From a virus (taxonomy: Duplodnaviria; Caudoviricetes): a stretch of 55,342 nucleotides of DNA. Positions within the stretch are counted from its first letter, which is position 1, and each line of letters begins with the position of its first letter. Below the pieces are notes generated by a model that made no database searches, was not told the DNA's origin, and worked only from the letters and a program-made list of their open reading frames with translations. The position numbers were made by a program, and so were the translations under genes. The stretch is taken from positions 1 through 55,342 of the IMG/VR virus record IMGVR_UViG_3300009149_000039; one strand, written 5' to 3'. Shown here in pieces: positions 1 through 55,342 of the stretch.

Positions 1-1
1 A

Positions 2-44578: not shown

Positions 44579-44679
44579 TTTAGATATTAATATCTTTTCC
44601 CTAAATATTTTATATTTATATACACTAACAAATTTTATTTTTTTCCTCTTTTATAGTAAAAATAAAATATAATATGGCT

Positions 44680-44709
44680 AAACCCGCAACATATGTTGTG
44701 GGTTTTTTT
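44680..44709 (+). terminator. Intrinsic terminator downstream of clp
   Basis: aaacccgcaac-atat-gttgtgggttttttt. Confidence 0.7.
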
Positions 44710-44754
44710 ATCGCTTATTTTGAATTGTCAATTATTTTTAATATATTTACTAAT

Positions 44755-45099
44755 ATGGGAACACAATCAAAGATAATAACAGATGTAGATGATGTCAAAA
44801 CATTTCTAACAATAGACGCGAATAAATCATATTCTGATTTCCAAACTTTTTATCAAGAAAATAAAGATACTATATATAAAGGTATAATATCATTATATGA
44901 ACAATTTGGTAGAACTAAAAATCAAAATTTGAAAATAGTTGTTAAATCTATAATTGTTGATTACAAATGGGACGCAAATTTAATATTTGAAAAAAGTGAC
45001 ACAAAAGCTCTTATGACATTCATATTACCATATTATGAAAATAATGAAGAATTTGAAACATGTGCTCATATTATGAAAATATACAAAAAATTACAATAG
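44755..45099 (+). CDS. Hypothetical protein
   Basis: Probable start MGTQSK (the longer track start lies in the terminator). Confidence 0.6.
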   Translation: MGTQSKIITDVDDVKTFLTIDANKSYSDFQTFYQENKDTIYKGIISLYEQFGRTKNQNLKIVVKSIIVDYKWDANLIFEKSDTKALMTFILPYYENNEEFETCAHIMKIYKKLQ

Positions 45100-45537
45100 T
45101 TCACTTGAACTATCCCCAATATTACTGTCAGTAGCACTTTCCTTAGCAGAATCACTTGAATTAAATTGATACCCTTCATACTCGGTTTCATAATACGATT
45201 CACCATAACCACCACCATAACCACCGCCACCATAACCACCACGATAACCACTACCCCTTGATGAGAATTTATCGACAGAATCAGCCCCCATACCAATGGC
45301 GGTTATAATCATTACCGCATCAACAAGAAAATCGGCTGGAATGAAATTAGGATAAAAACTATTTGCTAACATCGCACCACATAAAAATACTGAACCAACA
45401 AAAGCAATAACGGGTTTTATTGATGTTTCACCCCTTTCATCCTCAAATAAATTAATTATCCAGGTTTTAAATGTAACATTGTCGTTTTCCGTTCCACGCA
45501 CGACATATCTTTGTCTTTGTTTAACTGTGCTTTCCAT
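45091..45537 (-). CDS. Two-TM membrane protein with Gly-Tyr-rich tail (holin-like?)
   Basis: Two hydrophobic helices, GGYGGGGYGGGYG; TATTTATA upstream. Confidence 0.6.
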   Translation of the reverse strand: MESTVKQRQRYVVRGTENDNVTFKTWIINLFEDERGETSIKPVIAFVGSVFLCGAMLANSFYPNFIPADFLVDAVMIITAIGMGADSVDKFSSRGSGYRGGYGGGGYGGGYGESYYETEYEGYQFNSSDSAKESATDSNIGDSSSELL

Positions 45538-45711
45538 AAAATCACTTTTTATTATAAATATTTCGTTGTTAATTTACATATTTTTAATGAAATAGTGTAT
45601 AGATATGGGGAAAATTTTATAGTAACTTTCCCGTAAACCCACTTTTTTATTGTTAGGGATTACACAAGAAACGGTTATTAATAAAAAAAAACAAACTTTT
45701 TTTCGTTTTTT

Positions 45712-45743
45712 CTTGGCAGTTATAATATTTATACGTATATTTG
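45712..45743 (+). promoter_or_regulatory. Bacteroidota-type promoter of tRNA array 1
   Basis: CTTG 45712-45715, N20, TATATTTG 45736-45743. Confidence 0.7.
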
Positions 45744-45777
45744 CAAAAGTTATTTAAAAAAGATAAAATAAAATTCA

Positions 45778-45879
45778 ATGAGACCAACAGTACATATAGA
45801 AATTTCGATGGCGTGTTCAAAGTGGACAGATGAGCGTGATTTTGCCCTGTGCCGAGGTTTTGAAAAAGAATTTATATGA
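45778..45879 (+). CDS. Leader peptide 1 (putative attenuator uORF), MRPTVHIEISMACSKWTDERDFALCRGFEKEFI
   Basis: 33 codons between promoter and terminator; contains the antiterminator strand ccgaggttttga. Confidence 0.7.
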   Translation: MRPTVHIEISMACSKWTDERDFALCRGFEKEFI

Positions 45880-45904
45880 TAATATAAAAATTCGCATATT
45901 AGTC

Positions 45905-45938
45905 AAAACCTCGGAACAAAATTCCGGGGTTTTTTTTT
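45905..45938 (+). terminator. Attenuator terminator 1
   Basis: aaaacctcggaa-caaaa-ttccggggtttt plus U-run, located upstream of the first tRNA. Confidence 0.85.
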
Positions 45939-45953
45939 GTTCTTTAAAATAAT

Positions 45954-46027
45954 GGGACCATAGCTGAGCCCGGTTTTAGCACTGCTTTTGCAAGGCAGGG
46001 ACGGGGGTTCGAATCCCCCTGGCTCCA
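45954..46027 (+). tRNA. tRNA-Ala(TGC)
   Basis: ctgct-ttTGCaa-ggcag; G3:U70; GTTCGAATC. Confidence 0.85.
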
Positions 46028-46158
46028 CAAAATAGGTAAATAGATAATATCTACCAAAGAATTATCAGATTACCGTGAGTTGTTAGGTACTTTTGTAAAG
46101 TTAACTTAACAAAAATGTCCAACAACTTACAAAGCGATCTTTGACATCTTGGTCTTTT

Positions 46159-46236
46159 CGGTAAGTATCCCCCCTGCCTGATACGCAGGAGCGAGGTAAC
46201 TGGTTGAAAATGTGGGTTCGAATCCCACCTTACCGA
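46159..46236 (+). tRNA. Atypical tRNA-Ile(GAT)-like, no D arm, long variable region
   Basis: cggtaag/cttaccg acceptor, cctgc-ctGATac-gcagg, gtggg-ttcgaat-cccac. Confidence 0.55.
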
Positions 46237-46326
46237 CATATGGTGATGTAGCTCAGTAGACTGAAAAAAAATATTAGATTTCAGTTTTTATATGTTTTTT
46301 TAGTATTTATATATAAAATATATATT

Positions 46327-46752
46327 ATGAAAATATGTACAAAATGTAAGAATGAAAAAAACGAAAGTGAATTTTTTTTTAAGAATAAACAAAAAGGTAT
46401 TTTACATTCTAATTGTAAAGATTGTAAACGTGAAATAGATAGACGAAGTTATCACGAAAACAGAAATAATAGAAAAGATAAAATTAGAAAACGTTCTTAT
46501 GATGAAGTAAAAAGAGTTAGAGAATATTATATAGAATATAAGAAAAAACAAAAATGTAATAATTGTGGTGATGATAGATGGTATGTTTTAGATTTTCATC
46601 ATATTGAAAATAAGAAACACACAATAAGTTTTTTAGGAAAGAGGGGGAATATGAAAAAATTAAAAAAAGAACTTACTAAATGTGTACCTTTATGTGCGAA
46701 TTGTCATAGAGAATTACATTATTTAGAACATAACGGAGTGTTGGCAGATTAG
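46327..46752 (+). CDS. HNH homing endonuclease
   Basis: CTKC..CKDC zinc ribbon; LDFHH...KCVPLCANCHRELH. Confidence 0.85.
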   Translation: MKICTKCKNEKNESEFFFKNKQKGILHSNCKDCKREIDRRSYHENRNNRKDKIRKRSYDEVKRVREYYIEYKKKQKCNNCGDDRWYVLDFHHIENKKHTISFLGKRGNMKKLKKELTKCVPLCANCHRELHYLEHNGVLAD

Positions 46753-46807
46753 GTAATTGCGTTGGTCTGAAAAACCAAAGGAACTGGCTCGATACCAGTA
46801 CACTCCA
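46735..46807 (+). tRNA. tRNA-Phe(GAA)
   Basis: ttggt-ctGAAaa-accaa; ggagtgt/acactcc. Confidence 0.8.
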
Positions 46808-46812
46808 CAAAT

Positions 46813-46888
46813 AATTCCGTAGCTCAGTTGGTAGAGCATTAGATTTTTAATCTAAGGGTCGTGGGATCGTGCCCCACCGGGATTACCA
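46813..46888 (+). tRNA. tRNA-Lys(TTT)
   Basis: ttaga-ttTTTaa-tctaa; encoded ACCA. Confidence 0.85.
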
Positions 46889-46891
46889 AAT

Positions 46892-46973
46892 GCACCCGTG
46901 ACCGAGCGGAGCGAAAGCGTCAGGCACCACTCTTTTAAAGTGGGTTACATAGGTTCGAATCCTATCGGGTGCA
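46892..46973 (+). tRNA. tRNA-Lys(TTT) with D-loop insertion
   Basis: ccact-ctTTTaa-agtgg; gcacccg/cgggtgc. Confidence 0.75.
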
Positions 46974-47037
46974 CATTATAATCGGAAGGTTATAATCATA
47001 TATAAAGAGTAAGATGCATATGAAATTTATATATGTT

Positions 47038-47110
47038 AGCGGTAAGGTGTTGTGGGCGAGCATCCCCCCGTGCGAGGGGGTGGCTGTAGGTTCAAATCCT
47101 GCTACCGCTG
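47038..47110 (+). tRNA. tRNA-like, ambiguous anticodon (GCG or TGC)
   Basis: agcggta/taccgct acceptor, T arm gtagg-ttcaaat-cctgc; loop cgtgcga. Confidence 0.5.
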
Positions 47111-47240
47111 CAAAAATAGTTACTAGGTTAGCATATAATCGTATAATACCCGTTTATATGCTACTGGGGTAACATAAGATATTATAATCGGAAGGTTATA
47201 ATCAACATCAAATAATAATTGTACAATAAAATTGATGTTG

Positions 47241-47313
47241 TACGATGTGGGGGAGGGGTTACCTCGCCGCCAGCGAAAGGGCGGAGGCACAAGTTCGAAT
47301 CTTGTCATCGTAA
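47241..47313 (+). tRNA. tRNA-like with 8-nt non-canonical anticodon loop
   Basis: tacgatg/catcgta; ccgcc-agcgaaag-ggcgg; acaag-ttcgaat-cttgt. Confidence 0.5.
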
Positions 47314-47504
47314 CTATTCGAACACGAAGTGAAAACTGATATAAAAGTTTAATCTAAAGTGTACGGAAAATTTAATTATAACAATAGCAAAGGCGAAAAA
47401 AACCGTGAGCAGAGGAAGGGTCTGACAGGTAATTAAATTGGAACTACATAAGTAAATTAAATGAGTAATTGATGTTAGTAGTTAAGTTAGTAGACATATC
47501 GTTT

Positions 47505-47588
47505 GCACTTGTAGTTCAATGGGTAGAACATGGGAACGCATTTGCTATTCTTAATCCCAAGATATGAGTTCGAATCTCATCTGGTGAA
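47505..47588 (+). tRNA. tRNA-like with 19-nt anticodon loop
   Basis: Normal D and T arms; tggga-N19-tccca; weak acceptor stem. Confidence 0.45.
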
Positions 47589-47609
47589 TAACAAACGATA
47601 TGAATTTTC

Positions 47610-47681
47610 GTCTTCGTAGTGTAACCAGGTTAGCACGCAACCCTGTCACGGTTGTAGAGGGGTTCGAATCCCACGGGGACG
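47610..47681 (+). tRNA. tRNA-Asp(GTC)
   Basis: caacc-ctGTCac-ggttg. Confidence 0.8.
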
Positions 47682-47711
47682 GCTTTATTAAAAATAGAAT
47701 AATATAACATC

Positions 47712-47781
47712 CCTCCAGTAGTTCAATGGTAGAATATCTGATTGTGGTTCAGAAGATCAGGGTTCGAGTCCCGCTGGTTGA
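47712..47781 (+). tRNA. tRNA-His(GTG), weak acceptor stem
   Basis: tctga-ttGTGgt-tcaga. Confidence 0.6.
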
Positions 47782-47915
47782 CAAATGTGATTAGTGAGTC
47801 GGGGTATGAAGACACGCCCAGCAGAAACGCAAGCAAACGAAAGCAACTGATTAGTGTTTATCAGTATTTTTAAATTATACCTTTAAAAAAGAATAAAAAT
47901 TTAAACTTTAATAAA

Positions 47916-48170
47916 ATGGAATACATTAAAAAAGAAGACATTAAAGTCGGTTGGTATATCGGTTTTTGTCGCAACGCAAATTTAGCATTTTGGGATGGAA
48001 AAGAATTTATGCATATTAGAAATAAGTTCTTTTATAGATGGGATACCATAGAGCATTTCGATGATGTAAAAGAAAAAAAATTAGATGGTTTTGTCCCATT
48101 AAAAAAATTGGAATATGAAGAACCAGACTATAAAGTAATTGAAAAAGTAAAACAAGAAATAGGTTATTAA
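47916..48170 (+). CDS. Hypothetical protein
   Basis: 84-aa ORF within tRNA array. Confidence 0.65.
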   Translation: MEYIKKEDIKVGWYIGFCRNANLAFWDGKEFMHIRNKFFYRWDTIEHFDDVKEKKLDGFVPLKKLEYEEPDYKVIEKVKQEIGY

Positions 48171-48213
48171 GCTGACAAAAATTTAAAAAAGTAAACATAT
48201 AAGCTGACAAAAC

Positions 48214-48286
48214 GCTCCTGTCGTCTAATGGTTCAGGATAGAGGACCTTCAATCCCCAGATGCGAGTTCGATTCTCGTCAGGAGTA
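48214..48286 (+). tRNA. tRNA-Glu(TTC)
   Basis: Glu-type D arm tcgtctaatggttcaggat; loop ccTTCaa. Confidence 0.75.
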
Positions 48287-48304
48287 CAAAGAATTTTTTA
48301 TTAT

Positions 48305-48374
48305 TGCGGGGAGCTCTGGGTAAGCCACGACTCTCATAAGGTCGGAAAGAATAGTTCGATTCTATTCCCCGCAA
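48305..48374 (+). tRNA. tRNA-Met(CAT)
   Basis: cgact-ctCATaa-ggtcg; short D arm. Confidence 0.65.
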
Positions 48375-48383
48375 CATAATTTT

Positions 48384-48457
48384 GGGCCTGTAGCTCAGTT
48401 GGTCAGAGCAGCACACTCATAATGTGAAGGTCGTTGGTTCGAACCCATCCTGGCCCA
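48384..48457 (+). tRNA. tRNA-Ile2/Met(CAT)
   Basis: gggcctg acceptor, canonical D arm, caca-ctCATaa-tgtg. Confidence 0.8.
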
Positions 48458-48582
48458 CAATTTTTAAAATCCCCCGAGGGGGGGTCGGGGAAATAAAATT
48501 AGGAAACAGTTGTTTTTATTAATGTTTTATGTTATATTATGTCGTAAAAGTAGTAAACATTGTCGACAAAAAAGAAAAAAAT

Positions 48583-49017
48583 ATGAAAAAATTATTATGG
48601 TTAGACGATTTTAGGGACCCATTTGATGAAAAATCAAATTGGTTAGCATATAACTCAATACGAATAGAAAAACCATTCGAAATAATATGGGTTAAAAATT
48701 ATGATGAATTTATAGATTGGATAATTAAAAATGGATTACCATACCAAATAAGTTTTGACCACGATTTGGCGGATGAACATTATAGTCCTGATATGTATAA
48801 AACACCAGATGTATATAATAAACATTATGATGATTTTAGAGAAAAAACAGGTATGGATTGTGCAAAATGGTTAATAAGTTATTGTATAAACAATAATGTA
48901 AGTGTTCCTAAATTTACTGTACATAGTGCGAATCCCGTTGGTGGTGAAAATATTCGAGCACTACTTAGTAACTTTATCCGGCATCATCCGGTAATAAATA
49001 ATAAAAATTCTTGTTGA
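48583..49017 (+). CDS. Cyclic-phosphate-processing receiver-domain protein
   Basis: LWLDDFR, ISFDHDL, TGMDCAKWL, VHSANPVG; probable start MKKLLW. Confidence 0.75.
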   Translation: MKKLLWLDDFRDPFDEKSNWLAYNSIRIEKPFEIIWVKNYDEFIDWIIKNGLPYQISFDHDLADEHYSPDMYKTPDVYNKHYDDFREKTGMDCAKWLISYCINNNVSVPKFTVHSANPVGGENIRALLSNFIRHHPVINNKNSC

Positions 49018-49144
49018 TAATCAACCGATTATAAGTTTATCCGGTAATATCTGGCAAAAAGTGTCCATGCAAATGGTATTTTTTATCCATTTTAGGGTAG
49101 CTTGGACATAATGTCCAAGCAAATGTCCAAGCTAACAAAATATA

Positions 49145-49384
49145 TTGAAATTTCTATCGCTCCACGGAGAGGAAATTCGGGACATCATCGCTTAAGGTAG
49201 AAGATAATATCATTAAAAATGCACGATATCATTTATTATGATATTAAGCAAAAATTGTGATATTATCGTTTGTACTACCGAGGATGCAACACAAAACAGT
49301 TTAGAGGGTGAGCGACTCTATTATAACGAGGTAGTGGCAAGTAGATAAATGATAGAATAATACAGAATCCCGGTTATATTTCAA
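49145..49384 (+). ncRNA. rnpB: RNase P RNA, minimal (~240 nt)
   Basis: GAGGAAATTCGGGA and ACAGAATCCCGGTTA (P4 signature), AGATAAATGAT, P1 ttgaaat/atttcaa, P2 ttctatc/gatagaa. Confidence 0.85.
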
Positions 49385-49393
49385 TTTTAATAC

Positions 49394-49465
49394 AGGTGTA
49401 TAGTTCAACGGCTAGAATAATGGTCTCCAAAACCATAGATGGGGGTTCGAATCCCTCTACTCCTG
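49394..49465 (+). tRNA. tRNA-Trp(CCA)
   Basis: atggt-ctCCAaa-accat. Confidence 0.85.
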
Positions 49466-49477
49466 CAAAAAATAAAT

Positions 49478-49549
49478 GGCCTTATAGTTCAATGGATAGA
49501 ACACAACACTACGGATGTTAAGATGAGAGTTCGAGTCTTTCTAGGGTCA
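49478..49549 (+). tRNA. tRNA-Arg(ACG)
   Basis: aaca-ctACGga-tgtt. Confidence 0.85.
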
Positions 49550-49557
49550 CTATATAT

Positions 49558-49635
49558 TGGGATTTTGGGTAGGGACAGTATCATGAACTGTTTTGGGTAG
49601 CACCCCCCGTTGAAGTTCGATTCTTCTAATCCCAA
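49558..49635 (+). tRNA. Atypical tRNA-like (CAT), reduced D arm, long variable arm
   Basis: tgggatt/aatccca; cagt-atCATga-actg; gaag-ttcgatt-cttc. Confidence 0.4.
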
Positions 49636-49741
49636 CAGTTAATCGGAATAATTCCGATTATGTGGTTCTTATATCGCAACTTAGTAGTAAAGGTGATATT
49701 AAGATCAAAGATGGGGGAAAACTAATGAAACCCCCATACCA

Positions 49742-49813
49742 GGTCCTGTGTCCGATTGGCTAAGGTGGCGGACTGCAAATCCGTTTATATGAGTTCGAAT
49801 CTCATCGGGACCT
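49742..49813 (+). tRNA. tRNA-Cys(GCA)
   Basis: gcgga-ctGCAaa-tccgt; U73. Confidence 0.9.
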
Positions 49814-49819
49814 CAATAT

Positions 49820-49893
49820 GGTGATTGTAGCTGAATTGGTAAAGCACCTGACTGTGAATCAGAAGATTGTCGGTTCGACCCCGATCTTTCACC
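49820..49893 (+). tRNA. tRNA-His(GTG)
   Basis: G-1, C73, ctga-ctGTGaa-tcag. Confidence 0.85.
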
Positions 49894-49901
49894 CAAATAA
49901 T

Positions 49902-49989
49902 ACACTCGCTCATTTGGCGTGACCTGCGGGCTCCAACCCCGTTCTTTTGAGTAGCAATATAGGTGAGGGTTCGAATCCCTACGAGTGTG
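49902..49989 (+). tRNA. Atypical tRNA-Trp(CCA) with long variable region
   Basis: acactcg/cgagtgt; gcggg-ctCCAac-cccgt; aggg-ttcgaat-ccct. Confidence 0.5.
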
Positions 49990-50078
49990 CAACATAACAT
50001 AGGGTGTAAACTTGTGGAGAAGCAAGTCTTCGGAAAATACGTACCGTTGAAGCATTTGATTCTGATGCAGCCCTAAAT

Positions 50079-50150
50079 CCCGCCCTGGCTTAATGGTAGA
50101 GCGTCACTCTCATAAGGTGAAGTGTTCCAGTTCGAATCTGGAGGGCGGGA
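50079..50150 (+). tRNA. tRNA-Met(CAT)
   Basis: tcact-ctCATaa-ggtga; cccgccc/gggcggg. Confidence 0.8.
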
Positions 50151-50225
50151 CAAAAAAAATAAATAAAATGTCGAACATAATGATTTTTTGTTTATATTTG
50201 CATTTGAATTTTAAAGTATATTATA

Positions 50226-51095
50226 ATGTTAAAAATTGATGAAGGTTTTGATGAAATAATTAAATGTAATTATGAATTATATTCTGTAAAATTATTTGAA
50301 TTAAAAGAATTAGCAAAATCTTGGTATAAAGATATTAATTTTAATGATTTTGATAATAGATTTATTGGTGATAACGATTCGAATAAACTAATTCAAATGA
50401 AAAAAACCGGTATTTTATGTAATTACTTTTTTGCGTATAAAGAAGATAATATTTATCATCTTCTTGATGGGTTTAATCGGTTATTTACTGATTATGGTCA
50501 TATTAATGTTGACACAACTGTTTATTTGAAAGTTTTAGTAGGGGAGTTAAAAGATAATCACTTAATGTCTATTATGTTTATGCTTAATACTTGGAAATTA
50601 CAAACACAAGGAGTTCATTCATTTAGAATTACGAATTTTTTAGATAGGGGGTTTAGATTATTTTTATATAGTAAATTTGATATAAAACTATATGATTACA
50701 CTAACATTGATTATTACGATAGAATAAGAAACGATAAAGATATAGATGTTTTAGAAAAATATTTTATACGTGAAAGAGAATATAGTGATATGTTTAAATA
50801 TGAATTAGATGATTTAGCTATTCTTTTTTACAATAAAAACATAATAAATGATTTTAAAGAAATAATAAAATCAAATGATTATTTAACTGAACCTTTTAAC
50901 AATTATAATAAATTTCTTTATGGATTTATAATGTGGATATCACATAAAAGAATAAAAGGAGATAATTCTGAATATAAATTTCAAACATATTTAAATAAAT
51001 TATATCAGGATAAAAAATTCTTTAAAAAATTACAAGGAATGTCAGGAACAGACAGCACTAGAAAAAATATTTATAAATTCTTTCGTAATTTATAA
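50226..51095 (+). CDS. Hypothetical protein (ParB-like LLDGFNR motif)
   Basis: 289-aa ORF with its own TATATTTG promoter at 50193-50200. Confidence 0.65.
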   Translation: MLKIDEGFDEIIKCNYELYSVKLFELKELAKSWYKDINFNDFDNRFIGDNDSNKLIQMKKTGILCNYFFAYKEDNIYHLLDGFNRLFTDYGHINVDTTVYLKVLVGELKDNHLMSIMFMLNTWKLQTQGVHSFRITNFLDRGFRLFLYSKFDIKLYDYTNIDYYDRIRNDKDIDVLEKYFIREREYSDMFKYELDDLAILFYNKNIINDFKEIIKSNDYLTEPFNNYNKFLYGFIMWISHKRIKGDNSEYKFQTYLNKLYQDKKFFKKLQGMSGTDSTRKNIYKFFRNL

Positions 51096-51132
51096 AAATT
51101 ATGTATATTTGCAAAGTTCTTTAAAATAAAAA

Positions 51133-51201
51133 GCGGGAATAGCTCAGAGAAAGAGCTGGAGGTCACCTCTGTAAGCGAAGGTTCAAGTCCTTCTTCCCGC
51201 T
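51133..51201 (+). tRNA. tRNA-Gly-like body with aberrant anticodon arm centred on TCA
   Basis: gcgggaa/ttcccgc, U73; gagg-TCA-cctc; promoter TATATTTG at 51104-51111. Confidence 0.5.
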
Positions 51202-51206
51202 CACAT

Positions 51207-51297
51207 CGCGGGATGGAGCAGTCAGGTCAGCTCGCTAGGCTCATAACCTAGATTCGGTATCAATCCGCTTGCGAGGGTTCAAATCCCTCTCCCGCAA
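51207..51297 (+). tRNA. Initiator-like tRNA-fMet(CAT) with long variable arm
   Basis: C1:A72 mismatch, ggagcag..gctcg D arm, ctagg-ctCATaa-cctag. Confidence 0.75.
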
Positions 51298-51386
51298 CAA
51301 AATAAATTGGTATTATTTATATATATTTATATAAGTAATTGTAAAATTAAGGGGTATTTATACCATTATTTATATTTACTTATATT

Positions 51387-51578
51387 ATGTGGGAGTATTA
51401 CAAAACACTTATTTTATATGAAGACCATAAAGATTTAACTGACCAGTTAAATAAATTGGGTAGTGACAATTGGGAGATTATATATTATAAGGAGCTTCCA
51501 AAACAACAATTTGCATTACGTTCCCAAGTTGAAATTTTATTAAAAAGACCGAATATCATTGATTTAAGTGATAATTGA
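51387..51578 (+). CDS. DUF4177-like small protein
   Basis: MWEYYK...LNKLGSDNWEII...LLKRP. Confidence 0.6.
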   Translation: MWEYYKTLILYEDHKDLTDQLNKLGSDNWEIIYYKELPKQQFALRSQVEILLKRPNIIDLSDN

Positions 51579-51610
51579 AAATATCATTGATTTAAGTGAT
51601 ATTATAATAT

Positions 51611-51696
51611 GGAAGGCACCCGGCCGGATGAGGAGCTTGTCTTGAAAACAGGTAGCGGTTTAAAACCCGTTTGGGGTTCGAGTCCCTAGCCTTCCG
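51611..51696 (+). tRNA. tRNA-Ser(TGA)
   Basis: cttgt-ctTGAaa-acagg; long V arm; G73. Confidence 0.85.
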
Positions 51697-51736
51697 CAAG
51701 AAAAATGAAAATAAATGAAAAAAATATTAAAAAAAG

Positions 51737-51767
51737 TTTGGTAATTCAAAAAGTTTTTGTATATTTG
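51737..51767 (+). promoter_or_regulatory. Bacteroidota-type promoter of tRNA array 2
   Basis: TTTG 51737-51740, N19, TATATTTG 51760-51767. Confidence 0.8.
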
Positions 51768-51785
51768 CAATAATTATTAATAGAG

Positions 51786-51884
51786 ATGAAAAATTTATCG
51801 TACATACAGCCGAGTTCATATAGACCATATAATGGTACAGGAACAGTTACGCTTTTAAATGATGCGATAGGTTCGGATTCTTGA
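51786..51884 (+). CDS. Leader peptide 2 (putative attenuator uORF), MKNLSYIQPSSYRPYNGTGTVTLLNDAIGSDS
   Basis: 32 codons between promoter and terminator; same layout as leader 1. Confidence 0.7.
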   Translation: MKNLSYIQPSSYRPYNGTGTVTLLNDAIGSDS

Positions 51885-51910
51885 CAATAGAAATTATAGA
51901 AATTTTAATT

Positions 51911-51947
51911 AAAAGACCCGGACTTAAAAAAAAGTTCGGGTTTTTTT
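51911..51947 (+). terminator. Attenuator terminator 2
   Basis: aaaagacccggactt-aaaaaa-aagttcgggttttttt. Confidence 0.85.
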
Positions 51948-52138
51948 GTTTCTATTAGATAATAAAATAATAAGGCAACAACCTTATAATGATACACTAT
52001 AAGGCAACAACCTTATGATAAGGGTTCTTTGACATACTGTGAAAAAAAAAATAATAACACAATAGGTGGAATAATTTATGCCAAAATTTTATTTCACCAT
52101 ACGGTCCTGTGGCGGACGTTGGAATACGCAACAGACTT

Positions 52139-53095
52139 TAATAAAATACCGTAAAATTCTAATAATCGAACCAGAGGGGGTGTTTTTATGTGTTTTAAGT
52201 TATATTTATACTATATGAAACATAAATATAATAAAGAACAAGTACAAATAGCAGTAAAAAATAGTTTTTCTATTGCCCAAGTTTGTAGAGAATTAAAAAT
52301 ACGACCATCTGGAGGGAATTATGACACCGTAAAAAAATTGTTCAAAAAATGGGATATTAATATTGATCATTTTACTGGACAAGGATGGAATGTTGGTTTA
52401 AAATTTAAACCTTATAAAAAATACGAACTAAAAGATGTATTAATAAAAAACTCTCCATATAGGTCGACATATTCACTTAAAAAACGATTAATAAAGGAGG
52501 GGGTTAAAAAAAGAATGTGTGAAAACTGTTTTAGAGAAACGTGGATTAATAACCCAATCAATTTAGAACTTCATCACATAAATGGTGATAACACCGATCA
52601 TAGACTAGTAAATTTATTACTACTATGTCCAAATTGTCACTCATATACCCCAAATTTTAGAAAAGGTAAGAGTGCTCTTTCTGAAAAGAAAGAAGTAGAA
52701 TACCGTAAATTCAAGGAAACCTTAACACATAATGGTGATGGCAATCTTGAGCCAAGCTTTTTAACAAAAGAAGGTGCAGAGACTAGACACGGTAAATCTA
52801 AATCTAAAGATGAACATATTTGTTTAAATTGTAAAAAAATATTTTATAATAGAAATAAAGAAAGAAAATATTGTTCAACCAAATGTTATAGAGAACATAT
52901 AAAAATTAATATTCCTAAAGTACCTGAGTTAATAAAAAAATTTAAAGAATTAAAAACATTTACAAAGGTTGGGGAATTTTACTCTGTAAGTGATAACGCC
53001 GTAAAAAAATGGTGTAAATCATATGGAATTTTAGACATGATTAAGGAATAGTCCAGACCACAAACAATAATAGTAATGAAAATTATAGTGGTACG
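52139..53095 (+). ncRNA. Group I intron (tRNA-Leu-type core) with endonuclease ORF
   Basis: AAATTCAAGGAAACC, GGCAATCTTGAGCCAAG, GAAGGTGCAGAGACTAGA, AAGGAATAGTCC; terminal G. Confidence 0.9.
52188..53051 (+). CDS. Intron-encoded HNH homing endonuclease
   Basis: LELHHINGDNTDHRLVNLLLLCPNCHS; C-terminal CLNC..YCSTKC and HTH; start may be MKHKY at 52215. Confidence 0.85.
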   Translation: MCFKLYLYYMKHKYNKEQVQIAVKNSFSIAQVCRELKIRPSGGNYDTVKKLFKKWDINIDHFTGQGWNVGLKFKPYKKYELKDVLIKNSPYRSTYSLKKRLIKEGVKKRMCENCFRETWINNPINLELHHINGDNTDHRLVNLLLLCPNCHSYTPNFRKGKSALSEKKEVEYRKFKETLTHNGDGNLEPSFLTKEGAETRHGKSKSKDEHICLNCKKIFYNRNKERKYCSTKCYREHIKINIPKVPELIKKFKELKTFTKVGEFYSVSDNAVKKWCKSYGILDMIKE

Positions 53096-53150
53096 AAACC
53101 CTGTTTTTCGCTGGTTCGATTCCAGTCAGGATCACATTATTATAAAAGAA

Positions 53151-53234
53151 AAGTTGCCTTTGTGGTTACCACTACAATCCGCAGTAGTACGGTATTTAGG
53201 GTCATGACGTACCCACACAAAGGGCGGACAACTT
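53151..53234 (+). ncRNA. Unknown structured RNA (three-way junction, possible pseudoknot)
   Basis: cctttgtg/cacaaagg; tacc-actac/gtagt-ggta; gggt/accc. Confidence 0.45.
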
Positions 53235-53316
53235 AAAAAAATATTGAGTTAAACAATCTGAAACTTTATTAGGTGTATAATGGTGTATATAAAATGGATG
53301 ACTGTTTAACTTTTAT

Positions 53317-53389
53317 GGCCTCATAGCATAATGGATAGTGCGACAGGTTTCTACCCTGTTACGTGGGGGTTCGAGTCCCTCTGGGGTTA
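53317..53389 (+). tRNA. tRNA-Arg(TCT)
   Basis: acagg-ttTCTac-cctgt. Confidence 0.85.
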
Positions 53390-53401
53390 CTATTTTAATA
53401 A

Positions 53402-53478
53402 CTGGGTGTTCCACAGATGGCTATATGGCCTCGCCTTGGACGCGAGTGTTTTCGGGGGTTCGAATCCCTCCACCCAGA
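53402..53478 (+). tRNA. tRNA-Pro(TGG)
   Basis: ctcgc-ctTGGac-gcgag. Confidence 0.75.
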
Positions 53479-53490
53479 CAAAACAATAAT

Positions 53491-53563
53491 CGAGTAGTGG
53501 GAAAGTAGGTAATCCGCTACATTTGGGATGTAGAAAACGCAGGTTCGATCCCTGCCTACTCGA
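53491..53563 (+). tRNA. tRNA-Pro(TGG)
   Basis: ctaca-ttTGGga-tgtag. Confidence 0.85.
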
Positions 53564-53575
53564 CAAAATTAATAC

Positions 53576-53674
53576 GGAGGGATGCATTTTCGCGAAAAGT
53601 GTGTTGGAAAGCAATGTTAGCTGTACACTAACTGTCTTAATAGACTATTGTAGGTTCGACCCCTGCTCCCTCCA
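53576..53674 (+). tRNA. tRNA-Tyr(GTA) with D-arm hairpin insertion
   Basis: gttag-ctGTAca-ctaac; ggaggga/tccctcc; V arm. Confidence 0.7.
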
Positions 53675-53680
53675 CTAAAT

Positions 53681-53753
53681 GGTTCTCTGGCTGAATGGTT
53701 TAAGCACTTGACTGTTAATCAAGACTATGTGGGTTCGAATCCCACGGGGACCT
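53681..53753 (+). tRNA. tRNA-Asn(GTT)
   Basis: cttga-ctGTTaa-tcaag. Confidence 0.85.
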
Positions 53754-53758
53754 CAAAT

Positions 53759-53829
53759 TGACTGGTAGCTTAATGTAAAGGGTTCGGCTGTTAACCGAGA
53801 AGATGTGAGTTCGAGTCTCACCCAGTCAG
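53759..53829 (+). tRNA. tRNA-Asn(GTT)
   Basis: ttcgg-ctGTTaa-ccgag. Confidence 0.8.
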
Positions 53830-53944
53830 CAAAAAGTTATTAAAGATACGCGGGTAGACTTGGTTCGAGTCCAAGCACAGAAGGTACGAGCCATGGTAAT
53901 TGTACTGAAGTGAAGTGTAAGGGTTGTGCACACCGGCGGTAATA

Positions 53945-54019
53945 GCCCGTATGGCGGACGTTGGCCTACGCGATGGTCTTAGAAACCATTTTTCGAGAGT
54001 TCGATTCTCTCTATGGGCA
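53945..54019 (+). tRNA. tRNA-Leu(TAG) lacking long variable arm
   Basis: atggt-ctTAGaa-accat; variable loop ttttc. Confidence 0.8.
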
Positions 54020-54138
54020 CAAAGGTTAGTAGTTGGATTCTTAACCATTTGAAGGCGAAGTTTCCTTGGTGAAATTGAAAGGCCGTAGCCACCTGTGGTG
54101 GGTGGTGAACACCATGATAAAGTAGCCGAAAACAATCT

Positions 54139-54206
54139 GGGATAGCTCAGGACAGGGGCCGGGTCTGTAAAACCCTCGCCGGGGAGTTCGAGTCTCTCCT
54201 ATCCCA
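54139..54206 (+). tRNA. Atypical compact tRNA-Tyr(GTA)-like
   Basis: gggatag/ctatccc; gggt-ctGTAaa-accc; minimal D arm. Confidence 0.5.
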
Positions 54207-54232
54207 CAATTATTAACTTAAAATTAAAAAAA

Positions 54233-54406
54233 ATGAGACACAAATTTACACCACCTAATGAAAAGGTACAGGCATTTATTGATAATAATAAAATTATCAA
54301 AATGGAAACAAGTTTTCCGAAAGATCATAAAATCCCCAATATGAAAAGATGGAGATTCCAAACAGAAGACAAAGAATGGCATCAATTCGACCAAAGAATT
54401 GATTAA
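54233..54406 (+). CDS. Hypothetical 57-aa protein
   Basis: MRHKFTPPNEKVQAF...QRID; too short for the ORF track. Confidence 0.55.
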   Translation: MRHKFTPPNEKVQAFIDNNKIIKMETSFPKDHKIPNMKRWRFQTEDKEWHQFDQRID

Positions 54407-54492
54407 TGTTGCATTAAAATTATTGCGTTATACCCTATCGGGTAGAATATGAATGAATACTCACTCATTTATACCTGATAGGGTATAAAAAT

Positions 54493-54566
54493 GGTGGTGT
54501 AGCTTAGTCAGGTAGAGCAGGATTCTTATATGATCAAGGTCGGTGGTTCGAATCCACCCATCACTA
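54493..54566 (+). tRNA. tRNA-Ile(TAT)
   Basis: gatt-ctTATat-gatc; canonical D and T arms. Confidence 0.8.
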
Positions 54567-54627
54567 CGGCACTTTTCAAATTTTAGGTTATATTTATATA
54601 TATAACAATACACTAAAATTCGAAAAA

Positions 54628-55137
54628 ATGAAAAAATGTAAACAATGTGAAAAGGAATTAAAAAATCAAAAAAATATATTTTGTTCTAGTAGTTGTGCTG
54701 CAAAATATAATAATCCACGATATCACAAAAAAAAAGATAGATTTTGTTTACAATGTGAAGAAAAATTATTAAAAGAAAAAAAATACCATAACAAATTTTG
54801 TGACTCTAAATGTTCTAATCTTTATAAGTTTGAAAATGTCACATTAAAAAGATTTAATGACGGCAATGTATCAAAAAATACAACATTAAGAAAAATATTA
54901 ATAAACTTATATGGTAATTATTGTTTTGAGTGTAAACAACCTAATAACTGGAATGAAAAGGAATTAATATTAGAGGTTGACCACATAGATGGAAATTCAG
55001 ATAATAATCTACCAAAAAACCTTAGATTATTATGTCCTAATTGTCATTCACAAATGCCAACATCAAAATGTAAACATAAAAAAAAGAACACTAAACGAAA
55101 TAATTATTTACGAAAATTTAAACAGTATGAAACTTAA
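54628..55137 (+). CDS. HNH endonuclease with zinc-ribbon repeats
   Basis: CKQC..FCSSSC-type unit x2; LEVDHIDGNSDNNLPKNLRLLCPNCHS. Confidence 0.9.
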   Translation: MKKCKQCEKELKNQKNIFCSSSCAAKYNNPRYHKKKDRFCLQCEEKLLKEKKYHNKFCDSKCSNLYKFENVTLKRFNDGNVSKNTTLRKILINLYGNYCFECKQPNNWNEKELILEVDHIDGNSDNNLPKNLRLLCPNCHSQMPTSKCKHKKKNTKRNNYLRKFKQYET

Positions 55138-55139
55138 AC

Positions 55140-55225
55140 ACCCCTATGGTGTAATTGGATAAACATCTCACTCTTACAAAGTGAAGACGAGAAGTATAAT
55201 CTTGGTTCGAGTCCAAGTGGGGGTA
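55140..55225 (+). tRNA. tRNA-Val(TAC) with extended variable region
   Basis: tcact-ctTACaa-agtga; accccta/tgggggt. Confidence 0.75.
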
Positions 55226-55342
55226 CAACATTAAATTGGCTACGATTATTATTACTTCTAGGTTAATTCGCCCCTTAAAAACGGGCGATAATGGTTCAAA
55301 TCCACTATGTAATCAATTCCCAATTTATTTTTGCGAAAGTCG

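What the first reader, a model, noticed from the sequence alone, without database searches (positions are those of the whole stretch)
51737..51947. Attenuator 2: same architecture, unrelated sequence
Seen: a consensus TTTG-N19-TATATTTG promoter, a 32-codon uORF ending in TGA, and a terminator 26 nt later (25 nt in attenuator 1). The leader 3' end ggttcggattctt (51870-51882) can pair with the terminator 5' arm aagacccggact, with G-U pairs, one mismatch and one bulge. Near-identical length and spacing without sequence similarity to leader 1 argues for a functional constraint.
Basis: partly seen in the sequence, partly recalled or inferred. Interest (0 to 1): 0.82.

Follow-up and report, generated by a model that had tools for sequence, protein, structure and literature searches.

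The report
Leader peptide gate for phage tRNAs
A short translated leader with a switchable terminator sits in front of a phage tRNA gene array, and its codons match the tRNAs encoded behind it, so the phage appears to sense and correct its own tRNA supply.

Summary
The region holds a Bacteroidota-type promoter (51737-51767), a 32-codon uORF (51786-51884), a strong terminator (51911-51946) and a helix between the uORF 3' end and the terminator 5' arm.

The attenuator reading is supported and extended. Homologues of this unit occur in 5 related huge-phage contigs. The same architecture, with unrelated sequences, precedes tRNA arrays in 48 non-redundant units, including GenBank LR756502.1.

In every family the last codons of the uORF pair with that unit's own terminator arm (-12.5 against -7.6 kcal/mol for foreign arms).

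The new point is that the leader's core codons are those read by the tRNAs just downstream:
- core match 0.65 against 0.41 background;
- 94% of array anticodons are represented in the leader, against 63% in random coding windows;
- 18 of 18 units favour their own array over the other array on the same contig.

An extreme case is MTTSFQQQQQQQINRTD in front of four tRNA-Gln genes.

The conserved box after the terminator is most likely the host-type rrn BoxA, not a promoter.

Best reading: a ribosome-mediated attenuator that opens the array when its cognate tRNAs run short. For this window's unit alone the codon test is weak, because the contig end cuts the array. No RNA data exist.

The parts
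51737..51767 (+). Bacteroidota sigma-A type promoter: -33 TTTG (51737-51740), 19 nt spacer, -7 TATATTTG (51760-51767)
   Evidence: Exact pattern match. The -7 box is kept in homologues L038 and L033. 29 of 48 units have TAnnTTTG within 60 nt upstream of the ATG, against 5.1% of random positions. No transcript start has been mapped.
51786..51884 (+). Leader uORF, 32 codons plus TGA: MKNLSYIQPSSYRPYNGTGTVTLLNDAIGSDS
   Evidence: Homologous uORFs of 33-35 codons occur in L038, L033, L191, L097 and L179. The 3 indels inside the coding part of alignment A3 are all multiples of 3.
51789..51857 (+). Proposed sensing core (codons 2-24). Its codons are read by the downstream tRNAs Leu-UAA (tta x2), Arg-UCU (aga), Pro-UGG (ccg, cca), Asn-GUU (aat x3), Ile-UAU (ata), Val-UAC (gtt) and Leu-UAG (ctt).
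   Evidence: 10 core codons are read only by its own (cut) array, against 4 read only by array 1. Across the class, enrichment lies in codons 9-27 before the stop.
51868..51883 (+). Region 2: the antiterminator strand, covering the last 5 codons and the first bases of the stop codon
   Evidence: RNAduplex -12.0 kcal/mol with 51911-51925. GTTCGGAT is invariant in 6 of 6 homologues, and column 111:175 covaries.
51911..51925 (+). Region 3: terminator 5' arm, shared by the antiterminator and the terminator
51932..51949 (+). Region 4: terminator 3' arm (51932-51946) and T run
   Evidence: 15 pairs, 5 G-C. Hairpin -15.8 kcal/mol. 95.5% of cells are paired in 6 homologues, and 2 pairs change on both sides.
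52024..52035 (+). GTTCTTTGACAT box: probable rrn-type BoxA (NusB/NusE loading site) placed after the gate
   Evidence: Kept in L038 and L033 at the same place. In phage loci 34 of 127 distinct copies lie 11-17 nt before a tRNA. In bacterial genomes 56 of 122 copies lie in the 16S-23S spacer. The likeness to the E. coli boxA is recalled, not tested.
52103..53140 (+). First gene of array 2: a split tRNA, most likely tRNA-Leu(UAA). It is interrupted by an insert of about 950 nt that holds a group I intron core and an HNH endonuclease ORF (52188-53051).
   Evidence: Rfam Intron_gpI scores 40.5 bits, E = 1.6e-8, below gathering (50), at 52699-52794. Trial joins always give a tRNA starting at 52103, and junctions obeying the U/G rule give Leu(taa). 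Leu(taa) is the first tRNA after the homologous leaders in L038, L033 and L191. The exact splice sites are not fixed.
53317..55314 (+). Rest of array 2 up to the contig end: Arg-UCU, Pro-UGG x2, Asn-GUU x2, Leu-UAG, Ile-UAU, Val-UAC and a doubtful 64-nt 'Phe-AAA'
   Evidence: ARAGORN. The record ends at 55342 and is about 18% complete.
45713..45933 (+). Sister unit ('attenuator 1'): -7 box 45736-45743, uORF 45778-45879 (MRPTVHIEISMACSKWTDERDFALCRGFEKEFI), region 2 45851-45864, terminator 45905-45933, then tRNA-Ala at 45954
   Evidence: The 2:3 duplex is -20.4 kcal/mol, reached by 0 of 300 shuffles. 14 core codons are read only by its own array, against 5 read only by array 2.
46136..46147 (+). 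Second BoxA-like box (GATCTTTGACAT) inside array 1, before a tRNA that Rfam finds at 46159-46236

Best explanation
The region 51737-51949 is a ribosome-mediated (leader-peptide) transcription attenuator that gates the phage's second tRNA array.

Proposed mechanism:
1. Host RNA polymerase starts at the sigma-A type promoter.
2. A ribosome translates the 32-codon leader.
3. If the ribosome runs through to the stop, it covers region 2 (51868-51883). The terminator (51911-51946) then forms and transcription ends at the T run.
4. If the ribosome stalls in the core (codons about 9-27 before the stop), region 2 stays free and pairs with the terminator's 5' arm. Polymerase reads through.
5. Polymerase then meets a BoxA-like site (52024-52035) and transcribes the untranslated array.

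The core codons are those decoded by the tRNAs of the array itself. The unit therefore works as a multi-input sensor of those tRNAs: shortage of any of them opens the gate, and sufficiency closes it. This is negative feedback on the phage's own tRNA supply.

The design has three regions. Without any translation the default is read-through.

Shown here: the elements, their conservation, the alternative pairing, and the codon-tRNA correspondence.
Inferred: transcription start, translation of the uORF, stalling, termination efficiency, Nus-factor loading, and the biological trigger (for example loss of host tRNAs during infection or through tRNA-cleaving defences).
For: Architecture recurs.
- 58 units were found by a composition-blind pipeline, 48 of them non-redundant. 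Median uORF length is 32 codons (range 18-50), the stop-to-stem gap is 27 nt (20-36), and the terminator is -14.8 kcal/mol.
- 30 of 48 leaders start with MK.

Antiterminator.
- In the first 15 units the best partner of the terminator 5' arm always lies in the uORF tail, with p between 0 and 0.097 each.
- Swap control: a unit's own tail pairs with its own arm at -12.45 kcal/mol, against -7.58 for dissimilar arms of other units. 41 of 48 are better than the cross mean, 35 of 48 fall in the best 10%, Wilcoxon p = 5.8e-10.
- Compensatory differences occur between homologues: family D gaatgggg:ccccattc against gaacggg:cccgttc, and family A ccgagg:cctcgg against tcgggg:ccccga. In family B, column 111:175 reads UA 3, AU 2, GU 1.

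Codon-tRNA match.
- Family representatives (n = 19): own array 0.591 against derangements 0.431 (sd 0.019). 0 of 7297 permutations reach the observed value.
- Core 0.649 against background 0.405. 39 of 42 units lie above background, p = 1.5e-11. The last 8 codons score 0.384, no different from background (p = 0.53).
- 94.4% of the arrays' non-Met anticodons have a cognate codon in the leader, against 62.8% in random coding windows. 42 of 42 units lie above background.
- Within contigs, 248 core codons are read only by the unit's own array and 40 only by the other array. 18 of 18 units favour their own array, including this one (10 against 4).
- Isoacceptor level: for Arg, Ser and Leu, 62 of 87 core codons fall in the codon box of the array's tRNA, against 40.9 expected, p = 3.8e-6.

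Striking cases.
- L041: RPQQHPQ precedes exactly Arg, Pro, His, Gln, Gln.
- LR756502.1: MTTSFQQQQQQQINRTD precedes 4 tRNA-Gln genes.
- Val occurs in the family C leader core only where the array has a tRNA-Val.

No rival promoter lies after the terminator, and the box found there is BoxA-like.
Against: For this window's unit alone the codon test is weak.
- Whole leader: 0.39 against 0.37 background, p = 0.50.
- Core: 0.43 against 0.35.
- The contig end cuts the array. The Tyr, Gly, Thr, Gln and Ser-AGU codons of the leader have no known tRNA partner in the window.

Its antiterminator is also modest.
- It scores -12.0 against -15.8 kcal/mol for the terminator.
- It ranks 0.25 in the swap control.
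- Within family B only one pair changes on both sides, and 21 of 500 shuffles reach the covariation score.

Exceptions in the class.
- 7 of 48 units have no better pairing with their own arm than with foreign arms.
- 3 of 42 units have a core match at or below background.

Other weaknesses.
- Units are related by descent, so p values computed on all units overstate independence. The 19-family permutation is the safer figure.
- 116 of the loci were retrieved through the BoxA-like motif. That biases towards arrays with that box, though not towards leader composition.
- Constraint on the peptide is weak: 27 synonymous against 58 non-synonymous codon differences.
- There is no RNA evidence of any kind. 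No listed run is RNA.
- Array 1 has internal -7 boxes (50193, 51104) with no leader, so not all tRNAs depend on a gate.
Confidence: 0.77

Rival explanations
1. This is the same attenuator hardware, but the signal is general translation capacity or amino-acid supply (charged tRNA), not the abundance of the array's tRNAs. The leader then reports starvation or host shut-off, and the match to the array is a by-product of which amino acids the phage cares about.
For: A ribosome stalls for lack of aminoacyl-tRNA whatever the cause. The three-region design also reads through when translation stops altogether. Classical leaders sense charged tRNA (established knowledge).
Against: The leaders follow array membership at isoacceptor level: 62 of 87 against 40.9 expected. 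Between the two arrays of one phage, 18 of 18 units favour their own array, 248 codons against 40. A general sensor would not need either property. Making more tRNA also does not relieve amino-acid starvation.
Confidence: 0.12
2. The uORF is an ordinary small protein gene, or the roughly 170-nt terminated transcript is a small RNA, with its own terminator. The array is expressed independently of it.
For: A promoter, a short ORF and a terminator also describe a small gene. Terminated leaders can act in trans in other bacteria (abstract of PMC6614838 seen in the listing). Array 1 has leaderless internal promoters.
Against: No -7 box lies between the terminator and the tRNAs of array 2. In families A, D and E only 10-26 nt separate the terminator from the first tRNA. 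The peptide sequence is poorly conserved while its codon content tracks the array. The last codons are constrained by pairing with the terminator arm. There is no Pfam or Rfam family.
Confidence: 0.06
3. The GTTCTTTGACAT box is a promoter, for instance for a phage-modified polymerase, that drives array 2 constitutively. The terminator then only insulates the array from upstream transcription.
For: The box is conserved between the terminator and the first tRNA in families B and C. In two loci it lies 15-23 nt before an ATG.
Against: In bacteria 56 of 122 copies sit inside rrn operons between tRNA-Ala and the 23S gene, which is a BoxA position, not a promoter position. The window has only two copies in 55 kb. 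A copy 11-17 nt from a mature tRNA 5' end leaves little room for a start site. This reading does not explain the codon-tRNA match.
Confidence: 0.05

Closest known systems
Leader-peptide attenuators of amino-acid biosynthesis operons (trp, his, leu, thr, pheA, ilvGMEDA of Proteobacteria)
   Same: Both have a promoter-proximal short ORF, an intrinsic terminator, an antiterminator that shares a strand with the terminator, and regulatory codons placed upstream of the antiterminator so that a stalled ribosome leaves it free. The ilv leader is also multivalent. The poly-Gln leader of LR756502.1 looks like a his-type run.
   Different: The regulated genes are tRNAs, not enzymes. Up to about 12 different tRNA species are sampled with one to a few codons each. 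There are three regions rather than four, so the default without translation is read-through. The unit is encoded by huge phages with Bacteroidota-type promoters and is followed by a BoxA-like site. No Rfam leader family reaches its threshold; the best is Thr_leader at 22.5 bits against 55, matching on the terminator only.
pheST (pheM leader) attenuator
   Same: A leader-peptide attenuator that controls a gene of the translation apparatus in response to decoding of cognate codons (recalled knowledge, not tested here).
   Different: It controls a synthetase, senses one amino acid, and is chromosomal.
T-box riboswitches
   Same: Both use tRNA status to decide between a terminator and an antiterminator.
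   Different: A T-box binds uncharged tRNA directly through a specifier codon and the T-box sequence, with no ribosome and no ORF. No T-box match was found in the window.
rrn antitermination (BoxA, NusB/NusE, SuhB)
   Same: The box after the terminator has the sequence found in the 16S-23S spacer of Bacteroidota rrn operons. BoxA protects long untranslated transcripts from Rho (passages of PMC4807359).
   Different: Here it sits in a phage tRNA array, placed behind a translational gate. Binding of Nus factors is not tested.

Membership tests
Ribosome-mediated (leader-peptide) transcription attenuator | Short ORF directly downstream of a promoter and upstream of the regulated genes | tested here: met
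   uORF 51786-51884, 18 nt after the -7 box. Recurs in 48 non-redundant units.
Ribosome-mediated (leader-peptide) transcription attenuator | Intrinsic terminator between the leader ORF and the regulated genes | tested here: met
   51911-51946 plus T run, -15.8 kcal/mol. Kept in 6 of 6 homologues.
Ribosome-mediated (leader-peptide) transcription attenuator | Mutually exclusive antiterminator that uses the terminator 5' arm and a segment a ribosome can mask | tested here: met
   51868-51883 pairs with 51911-51925 at -12.0 kcal/mol. Class-wide swap control: -12.45 against -7.58 kcal/mol, p = 5.8e-10. Region 2 lies at a median of -20 to -9 nt from the stop.
Ribosome-mediated (leader-peptide) transcription attenuator | Regulatory codons in the leader that relate to the product of the regulated genes | tested here: met
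   Class. This unit: own array 10 against other array 4, but the whole-leader test is not significant, p = 0.50, because the array is cut by the contig end.
Ribosome-mediated (leader-peptide) transcription attenuator | Upstream 1:2 (pause or anti-antiterminator) hairpin | tested here: inconclusive
   A hairpin at 51792-51805: 51859-51873 overlaps region 2 by 4 nt in the full-length fold but not in the truncated fold. It was not examined across the units.
Ribosome-mediated (leader-peptide) transcription attenuator | Read-through depends on translation and stalling in vivo or in vitro | not testable with these tools
   No RNA run holds the window. No cultured relative exists; the nearest GenBank records are uncultured huge phages.
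T-box riboswitch | Specifier loop and conserved T-box sequence (Rfam T-box model) | tested here: not met
   No T-box hit at gathering in the window, nor at E <= 1 in 51700-52110.
rrn BoxA antitermination site | The same sequence lies in rrn operons downstream of the spacer tRNAs | tested here: met
   56 of 122 bacterial copies lie within 900 nt after the 16S 3' landmark, mostly 60-270 nt after tRNA-Ala.
rrn BoxA antitermination site | Binding of NusB/NusE and a termination-resistant polymerase | not testable with these tools
   Inference only.

The most novel reading that the evidence does not exclude
Huge phages of Bacteroidota run each tRNA array under closed-loop control. A leader peptide that lists the array's tRNAs, codon by codon and down to isoacceptors, acts as an OR-gate sensor, and a BoxA site behind the gate locks polymerase into processive mode. 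If so, these phages detect loss of specific tRNAs (host shut-off, codon mismatch, or anticodon-nuclease defences) and answer with exactly the matching tRNA set. The leaders would also be a readable index that predicts array content from about 30 codons. From that index, this window's array 2 should continue beyond the contig end with tRNAs for Tyr, Gly, Thr, Gln and Ser-AGY.
Probability: 0.6. Interest if true: 0.95.

Novelty: new variant of a known kind. Interest (0 to 1): 0.9.

Why it matters
How phages regulate their tRNA genes is essentially unknown. tRNA arrays are usually discussed only in terms of codon usage or escape from tRNA-cleaving defences.

Here a classical mechanism, leader-peptide attenuation, is turned onto tRNA genes themselves, and the leader composition co-varies with array content across dozens of phage lineages. 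This has three consequences:
- a directly testable model of tRNA homeostasis during infection;
- a sequence rule that predicts which tRNAs belong to one transcription unit;
- a natural multi-input tRNA sensor that could be reused as a reporter of tRNA availability.

I found no description of it in four full-text searches. The main text of the paper that published the related 642-kb genome has 0 hits for 'attenuat', 'leader peptide' or 'terminator' (PMC7162821). Its supplements could not be seen.

Tried and rejected
- RNA evidence: the look-up of sequencing runs listed 5 DNA holders and no RNA holder.
- The search for related loci with the 289-aa neighbour (50226-51095) found no relative.
- An exact scan for the terminator sequence in viral contigs found nothing.
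- megablast of 44600-55342 against GenBank phages gave only a 50-nt tRNA-like match.
- An Rfam scan of 8 bacterial loci failed internally. I located the box relative to 16S landmarks and tRNAs with a script instead.
- Box as a sigma-70 or sigma-A promoter: rejected. No conserved -10 or -7 partner lies at the right spacing (my reading), and the box sits in the rrn spacer in bacteria.
- Chance: rejected.
- Peptide function: no Pfam hit for either leader, and coding constraint is weak.
- A conserved peptide family across units: nhmmer with the family B profile gives only weak hits to other leader families (E = 1e-7 to 8.5e-4). A common origin is possible but not shown.

Full report
**Context.** The window is a whole IMG/VR virus record of 55,342 bp, estimated at 18% complete. 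That points to a phage of roughly 300 kb. From 45954 to the contig end it carries 28 ARAGORN tRNAs and 23 Rfam tRNA hits, interspersed with small ORFs and two HNH endonuclease genes. Its ClpB-like ATPase (42572-44578) has 563 relatives in IMG/VR. The nearest GenBank records are uncultured huge phages of 642 and 635 kb, at 53-56% protein identity.

**Observation.**
- TTTG-N19-TATATTTG lies at 51737-51767.
- A 32-codon ORF runs from 51786 to 51884 and ends in TGA.
- The strongest terminator-like hairpin of the region lies at 51911-51946, 26 nt after the stop.
- The stretch 51870-51882 pairs with the terminator 5' arm. RNAduplex gives -12.0 kcal/mol, against a shuffle mean of -7.3 (p = 0.03). The helix forms in the minimum-energy fold of the transcript cut after the 5' arm.
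- The promoter motif by itself is not rarer than chance in this AT-rich window: 7 found, 3.86 expected.
- Unit 1 (uORF 45778-45879, terminator 45905-45933) has the same layout. It has an 11-nt perfect antiterminator, which the full-length minimum-energy fold adopts.

**Homologues of the unit.**
- blastn found a full-length homologue in L038: 67.6% over 259 nt, E = 4e-12.
- A profile search added L033 (identical in L034, L036 and L037), L191, L097 and L179.
- In the six-sequence alignment A3 the uORF is kept at 32-35 codons. All three coding indels are multiples of three.
- GTTCGGAT in the uORF tail and ACCCG(G/A)AC ... GTTCGGG in the terminator are invariant.
- The antiterminator keeps 7 contiguous pairs in 6 of 6 sequences. 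One pair changes on both sides (UA 3, AU 2, GU 1). 21 of 500 column shuffles reach the covariation score.
- The terminator is 95.5% paired, with two pairs changing on both sides.
- Within the family this support is modest but consistent.

**The architecture is a class.** A scan that used only tRNAs, hairpin energy, T runs and ORF geometry was run over the 80 ClpB-anchored loci, 116 loci retrieved with a conserved 17-nt box, and the window.
- It gave 58 units, of which 48 remain after removing leaders at least 80% alike.
- I added the window's unit 2 by hand. Its first tRNA is intron-split, so ARAGORN's first tRNA lies beyond the 200-nt limit.
- I trimmed unit 1's array by hand to its 19 tRNAs.
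- Median uORF length is 32 codons (18-50). The median gap from stop to stem is 27 nt (20-36). The median hairpin is -14.8 kcal/mol.
- 29 of 48 units have a TAnnTTTG box within 60 nt of the ATG, against 5.1% of random positions. 30 of 48 leaders start with MK.
- The terminator stems differ between families, and the uORF tail differs with them. A unit's own tail pairs with its own arm at -12.45 kcal/mol, against -7.58 for dissimilar arms of other units. 41 of 48 are better than the cross mean, 35 of 48 fall in the best 10%, p = 5.8e-10.
- Homologues show compensatory differences. Family D has gaatgggg:ccccattc against gaacggg:cccgttc. Family A has ccgagg:cctcgg against tcgggg:ccccga.
- Region 2 lies at a median of 20 to 9 nt before the stop.

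**The new finding: leader codons mirror the array.**

Illustrative cases:
- In L041, MKNLLNNGRPQQHPQVDEWGYYV precedes exactly Arg-ACG, Pro-UGG, His-GUG, Gln-CUG and Gln-UUG.
- The LLVAxxAEVLLWADED leaders precede arrays of Asp, Glu, Val, Leu, Ala and Trp. Val is absent from the leader core where the array has no tRNA-Val.
- L089 has MRTTGTTYQPKQYTQGGKP before Pro, Pro, Gln, Tyr, Thr, Gly, Gly, Lys, Lys, Lys.
- In GenBank LR756502.1, MTTSFQQQQQQQINRTD precedes four tRNA-Gln genes.

Quantitatively, on the 42 units with at least 4 tRNAs (6 of 48 dropped):
- One representative of each of 19 leader families matches its own array at 0.591. Derangements give 0.431 (sd 0.019). 0 of 7297 permutations reach the observed value.
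- The match is positional. It is 0.31-0.50 in the last 8 codons, 0.61-0.86 in codons 9-24 before the stop, and falls again at the N terminus.
- Core 0.649 against background 0.405; 39 of 42 units lie above, p = 1.5e-11. The tail scores 0.384, no different from background (p = 0.53).
- Conversely, 94.4% of the arrays' non-Met anticodons have a cognate codon in the leader, against 62.8% in random coding windows of equal length. 42 of 42 units lie above.
- On the 9 contigs with two units, 248 core codons are read only by the unit's own array and 40 only by the other. 18 of 18 units favour their own array.
- For Arg, Ser and Leu, the leader uses the codon box of the array's isoacceptor in 62 of 87 cases, against 40.9 expected, p = 3.8e-6.

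Units are related by descent, so the per-unit p values overstate independence.

**This window's unit.**
- Its core contains codons for every credible tRNA known in array 2: Leu-UAA, Arg-UCU, Pro-UGG, Asn-GUU, Leu-UAG, Ile-UAU and Val-UAC.
- It favours its own array over array 1 by 10 to 4, although array 1 is twice as large.
- The precision tests are not significant. The whole leader scores 0.39 against 0.37, p = 0.50. The core scores 0.43 against 0.35.
- The record ends 2 kb into the array. The unmatched codons (Tyr, Gly, Thr, Gln, Ser-AGU) are the ones whose tRNAs follow in the homologous arrays of L038 and L191. That is a prediction, not a result.

**What lies after the terminator.**
- No TAnnTTTG box occurs on the + strand between 51768 and 53517.
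- The first gene is a split tRNA starting at 52103. The acceptor, D and T arms flank an insert of about 950 nt.
- That insert contains a group I intron core (Rfam 40.5 bits, E = 1.6e-8, below the gathering score of 50) and the HNH ORF 52188-53051.
- Trial joins give tRNA-Leu(UAA) for junctions that obey the U/G rule. Leu(UAA) is the first tRNA in the homologous arrays. The splice sites are not fixed.
- Between the terminator and this tRNA lies GTTCTTTGACAT (52024-52035), conserved in L038 and L033.
- In phage loci 34 of 127 distinct copies lie 11-17 nt before a tRNA.
- In bacterial genomes, mostly Bacteroidota, 56 of 122 copies lie in the 16S-23S spacer, typically 60-270 nt after tRNA-Ala.
- That is the position of the spacer BoxA of rrn operons. 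The sequence also resembles the E. coli boxA as I recall it, a likeness that was not tested.
- BoxA recruits NusB/NusE/SuhB and protects long untranslated RNA from Rho (passages of PMC4807359).
- I therefore read the box as BoxA, not as a promoter. The order gate-then-BoxA makes sense, because only polymerases that pass the attenuator are converted to the processive form.

**Mechanism.** The mechanism is as given under Best explanation. Two details add to it.
- No translation at all also allows read-through.
- The positional profile fits the geometry. The enrichment peaks 12-14 codons before the stop, so the leading edge of a stalled ribosome ends just short of region 2.

Translation, stalling, termination and Nus loading are all inferred.

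**Comparison and novelty.**
- The hardware is that of classical leader-peptide attenuators. Three of the four sequence-level defining features are met for this unit, and the fourth (regulatory codons) is met for the class. The functional feature cannot be tested here.
- It is not a T-box, and no Rfam or Pfam family covers it.
- What is new: the target is tRNA arrays, the leader gives a multi-tRNA and isoacceptor-level listing, the design has three regions, a BoxA lies behind the gate, and it occurs in huge phages.
- Four full-text searches found nothing on it. The main text of the huge-phage paper does not mention attenuators, leader peptides or terminators. Supplements were not available.
- I rate it a new variant of a known kind, of high interest.

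Noticed in passing
window 52103-53140: The first tRNA of array 2 is split by an insert of about 950 nt. The insert holds a group I intron core (Rfam 40.5 bits, below gathering) and an HNH endonuclease ORF (52188-53051). It is most likely tRNA-Leu(UAA) interrupted in the anticodon loop, the classical intron site of cyanobacteria and plastids.
   Followed up: partly
L201 (LR756502.1 420673-462556) 2265-2376: The published 642-kb huge phage has a leader MTTSFQQQQQQQINRTD (seven Gln codons, cag and caa mixed) plus a terminator directly before four tRNA-Gln genes (UUG x3, CUG). A second unit (1286-1447) lies before Pro, Pro, Asp, Asp, Asp.
   Followed up: yes
window 47241-47314: ARAGORN calls a tRNA with an 8-nt anticodon loop and a four-base anticodon (cgaa). 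This could be a frameshift-type or defective tRNA.
   Followed up: no
window 47504-47589 and 46159-46236: Two tRNAs were missed by plain ARAGORN. One is a tRNA-Lys(CUU) with a 12-nt insert in the anticodon region (aragorn -i). The other is an Rfam tRNA hit whose anticodon loop I read as Ile(GAU), with an extra insert.
   Followed up: partly
window 48529-49017: A gene inside the tRNA region has a cREC_REC 'cyclic-phosphate processing receiver' domain (PF20274, E = 6.6e-22). This hints that RNA or tRNA damage and repair matter to this phage.
   Followed up: no
window 50193-50200 and 51104-51111: Perfect TATATTTG -7 boxes inside array 1 have no leader ORF. One lies before the 289-aa ORF 50226-51095, the other 22 nt before tRNA-Val 51133. 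Part of array 1 may therefore have ungated promoters.
   Followed up: partly
window 51980-52030: A direct repeat of about 20 nt (taaggcaacaaccttat..atga, two copies) lies between the terminator and the BoxA-like box. It is absent from the L038 and L033 homologues.
   Followed up: no
window 1-4282: Both strands are open over about 4.2 kb: 1387 aa on the + strand and 1427 aa on the - strand. Long antiparallel open frames like this are unusual.
   Followed up: no
window 54628-55137: A second HNH endonuclease ORF (PF01844, E = 4.1e-5) lies inside array 2, between tRNA-Ile(UAU) and tRNA-Val(UAC).
   Followed up: no
L169, L199, L145, L192 leaders: Closely related leaders differ by local reordering of residues (KTN or KNT, CNKPNNQ or SKQPSNQ), with 27 synonymous against 58 non-synonymous codon differences. 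It is as if composition rather than peptide sequence were under selection.
   Followed up: partly
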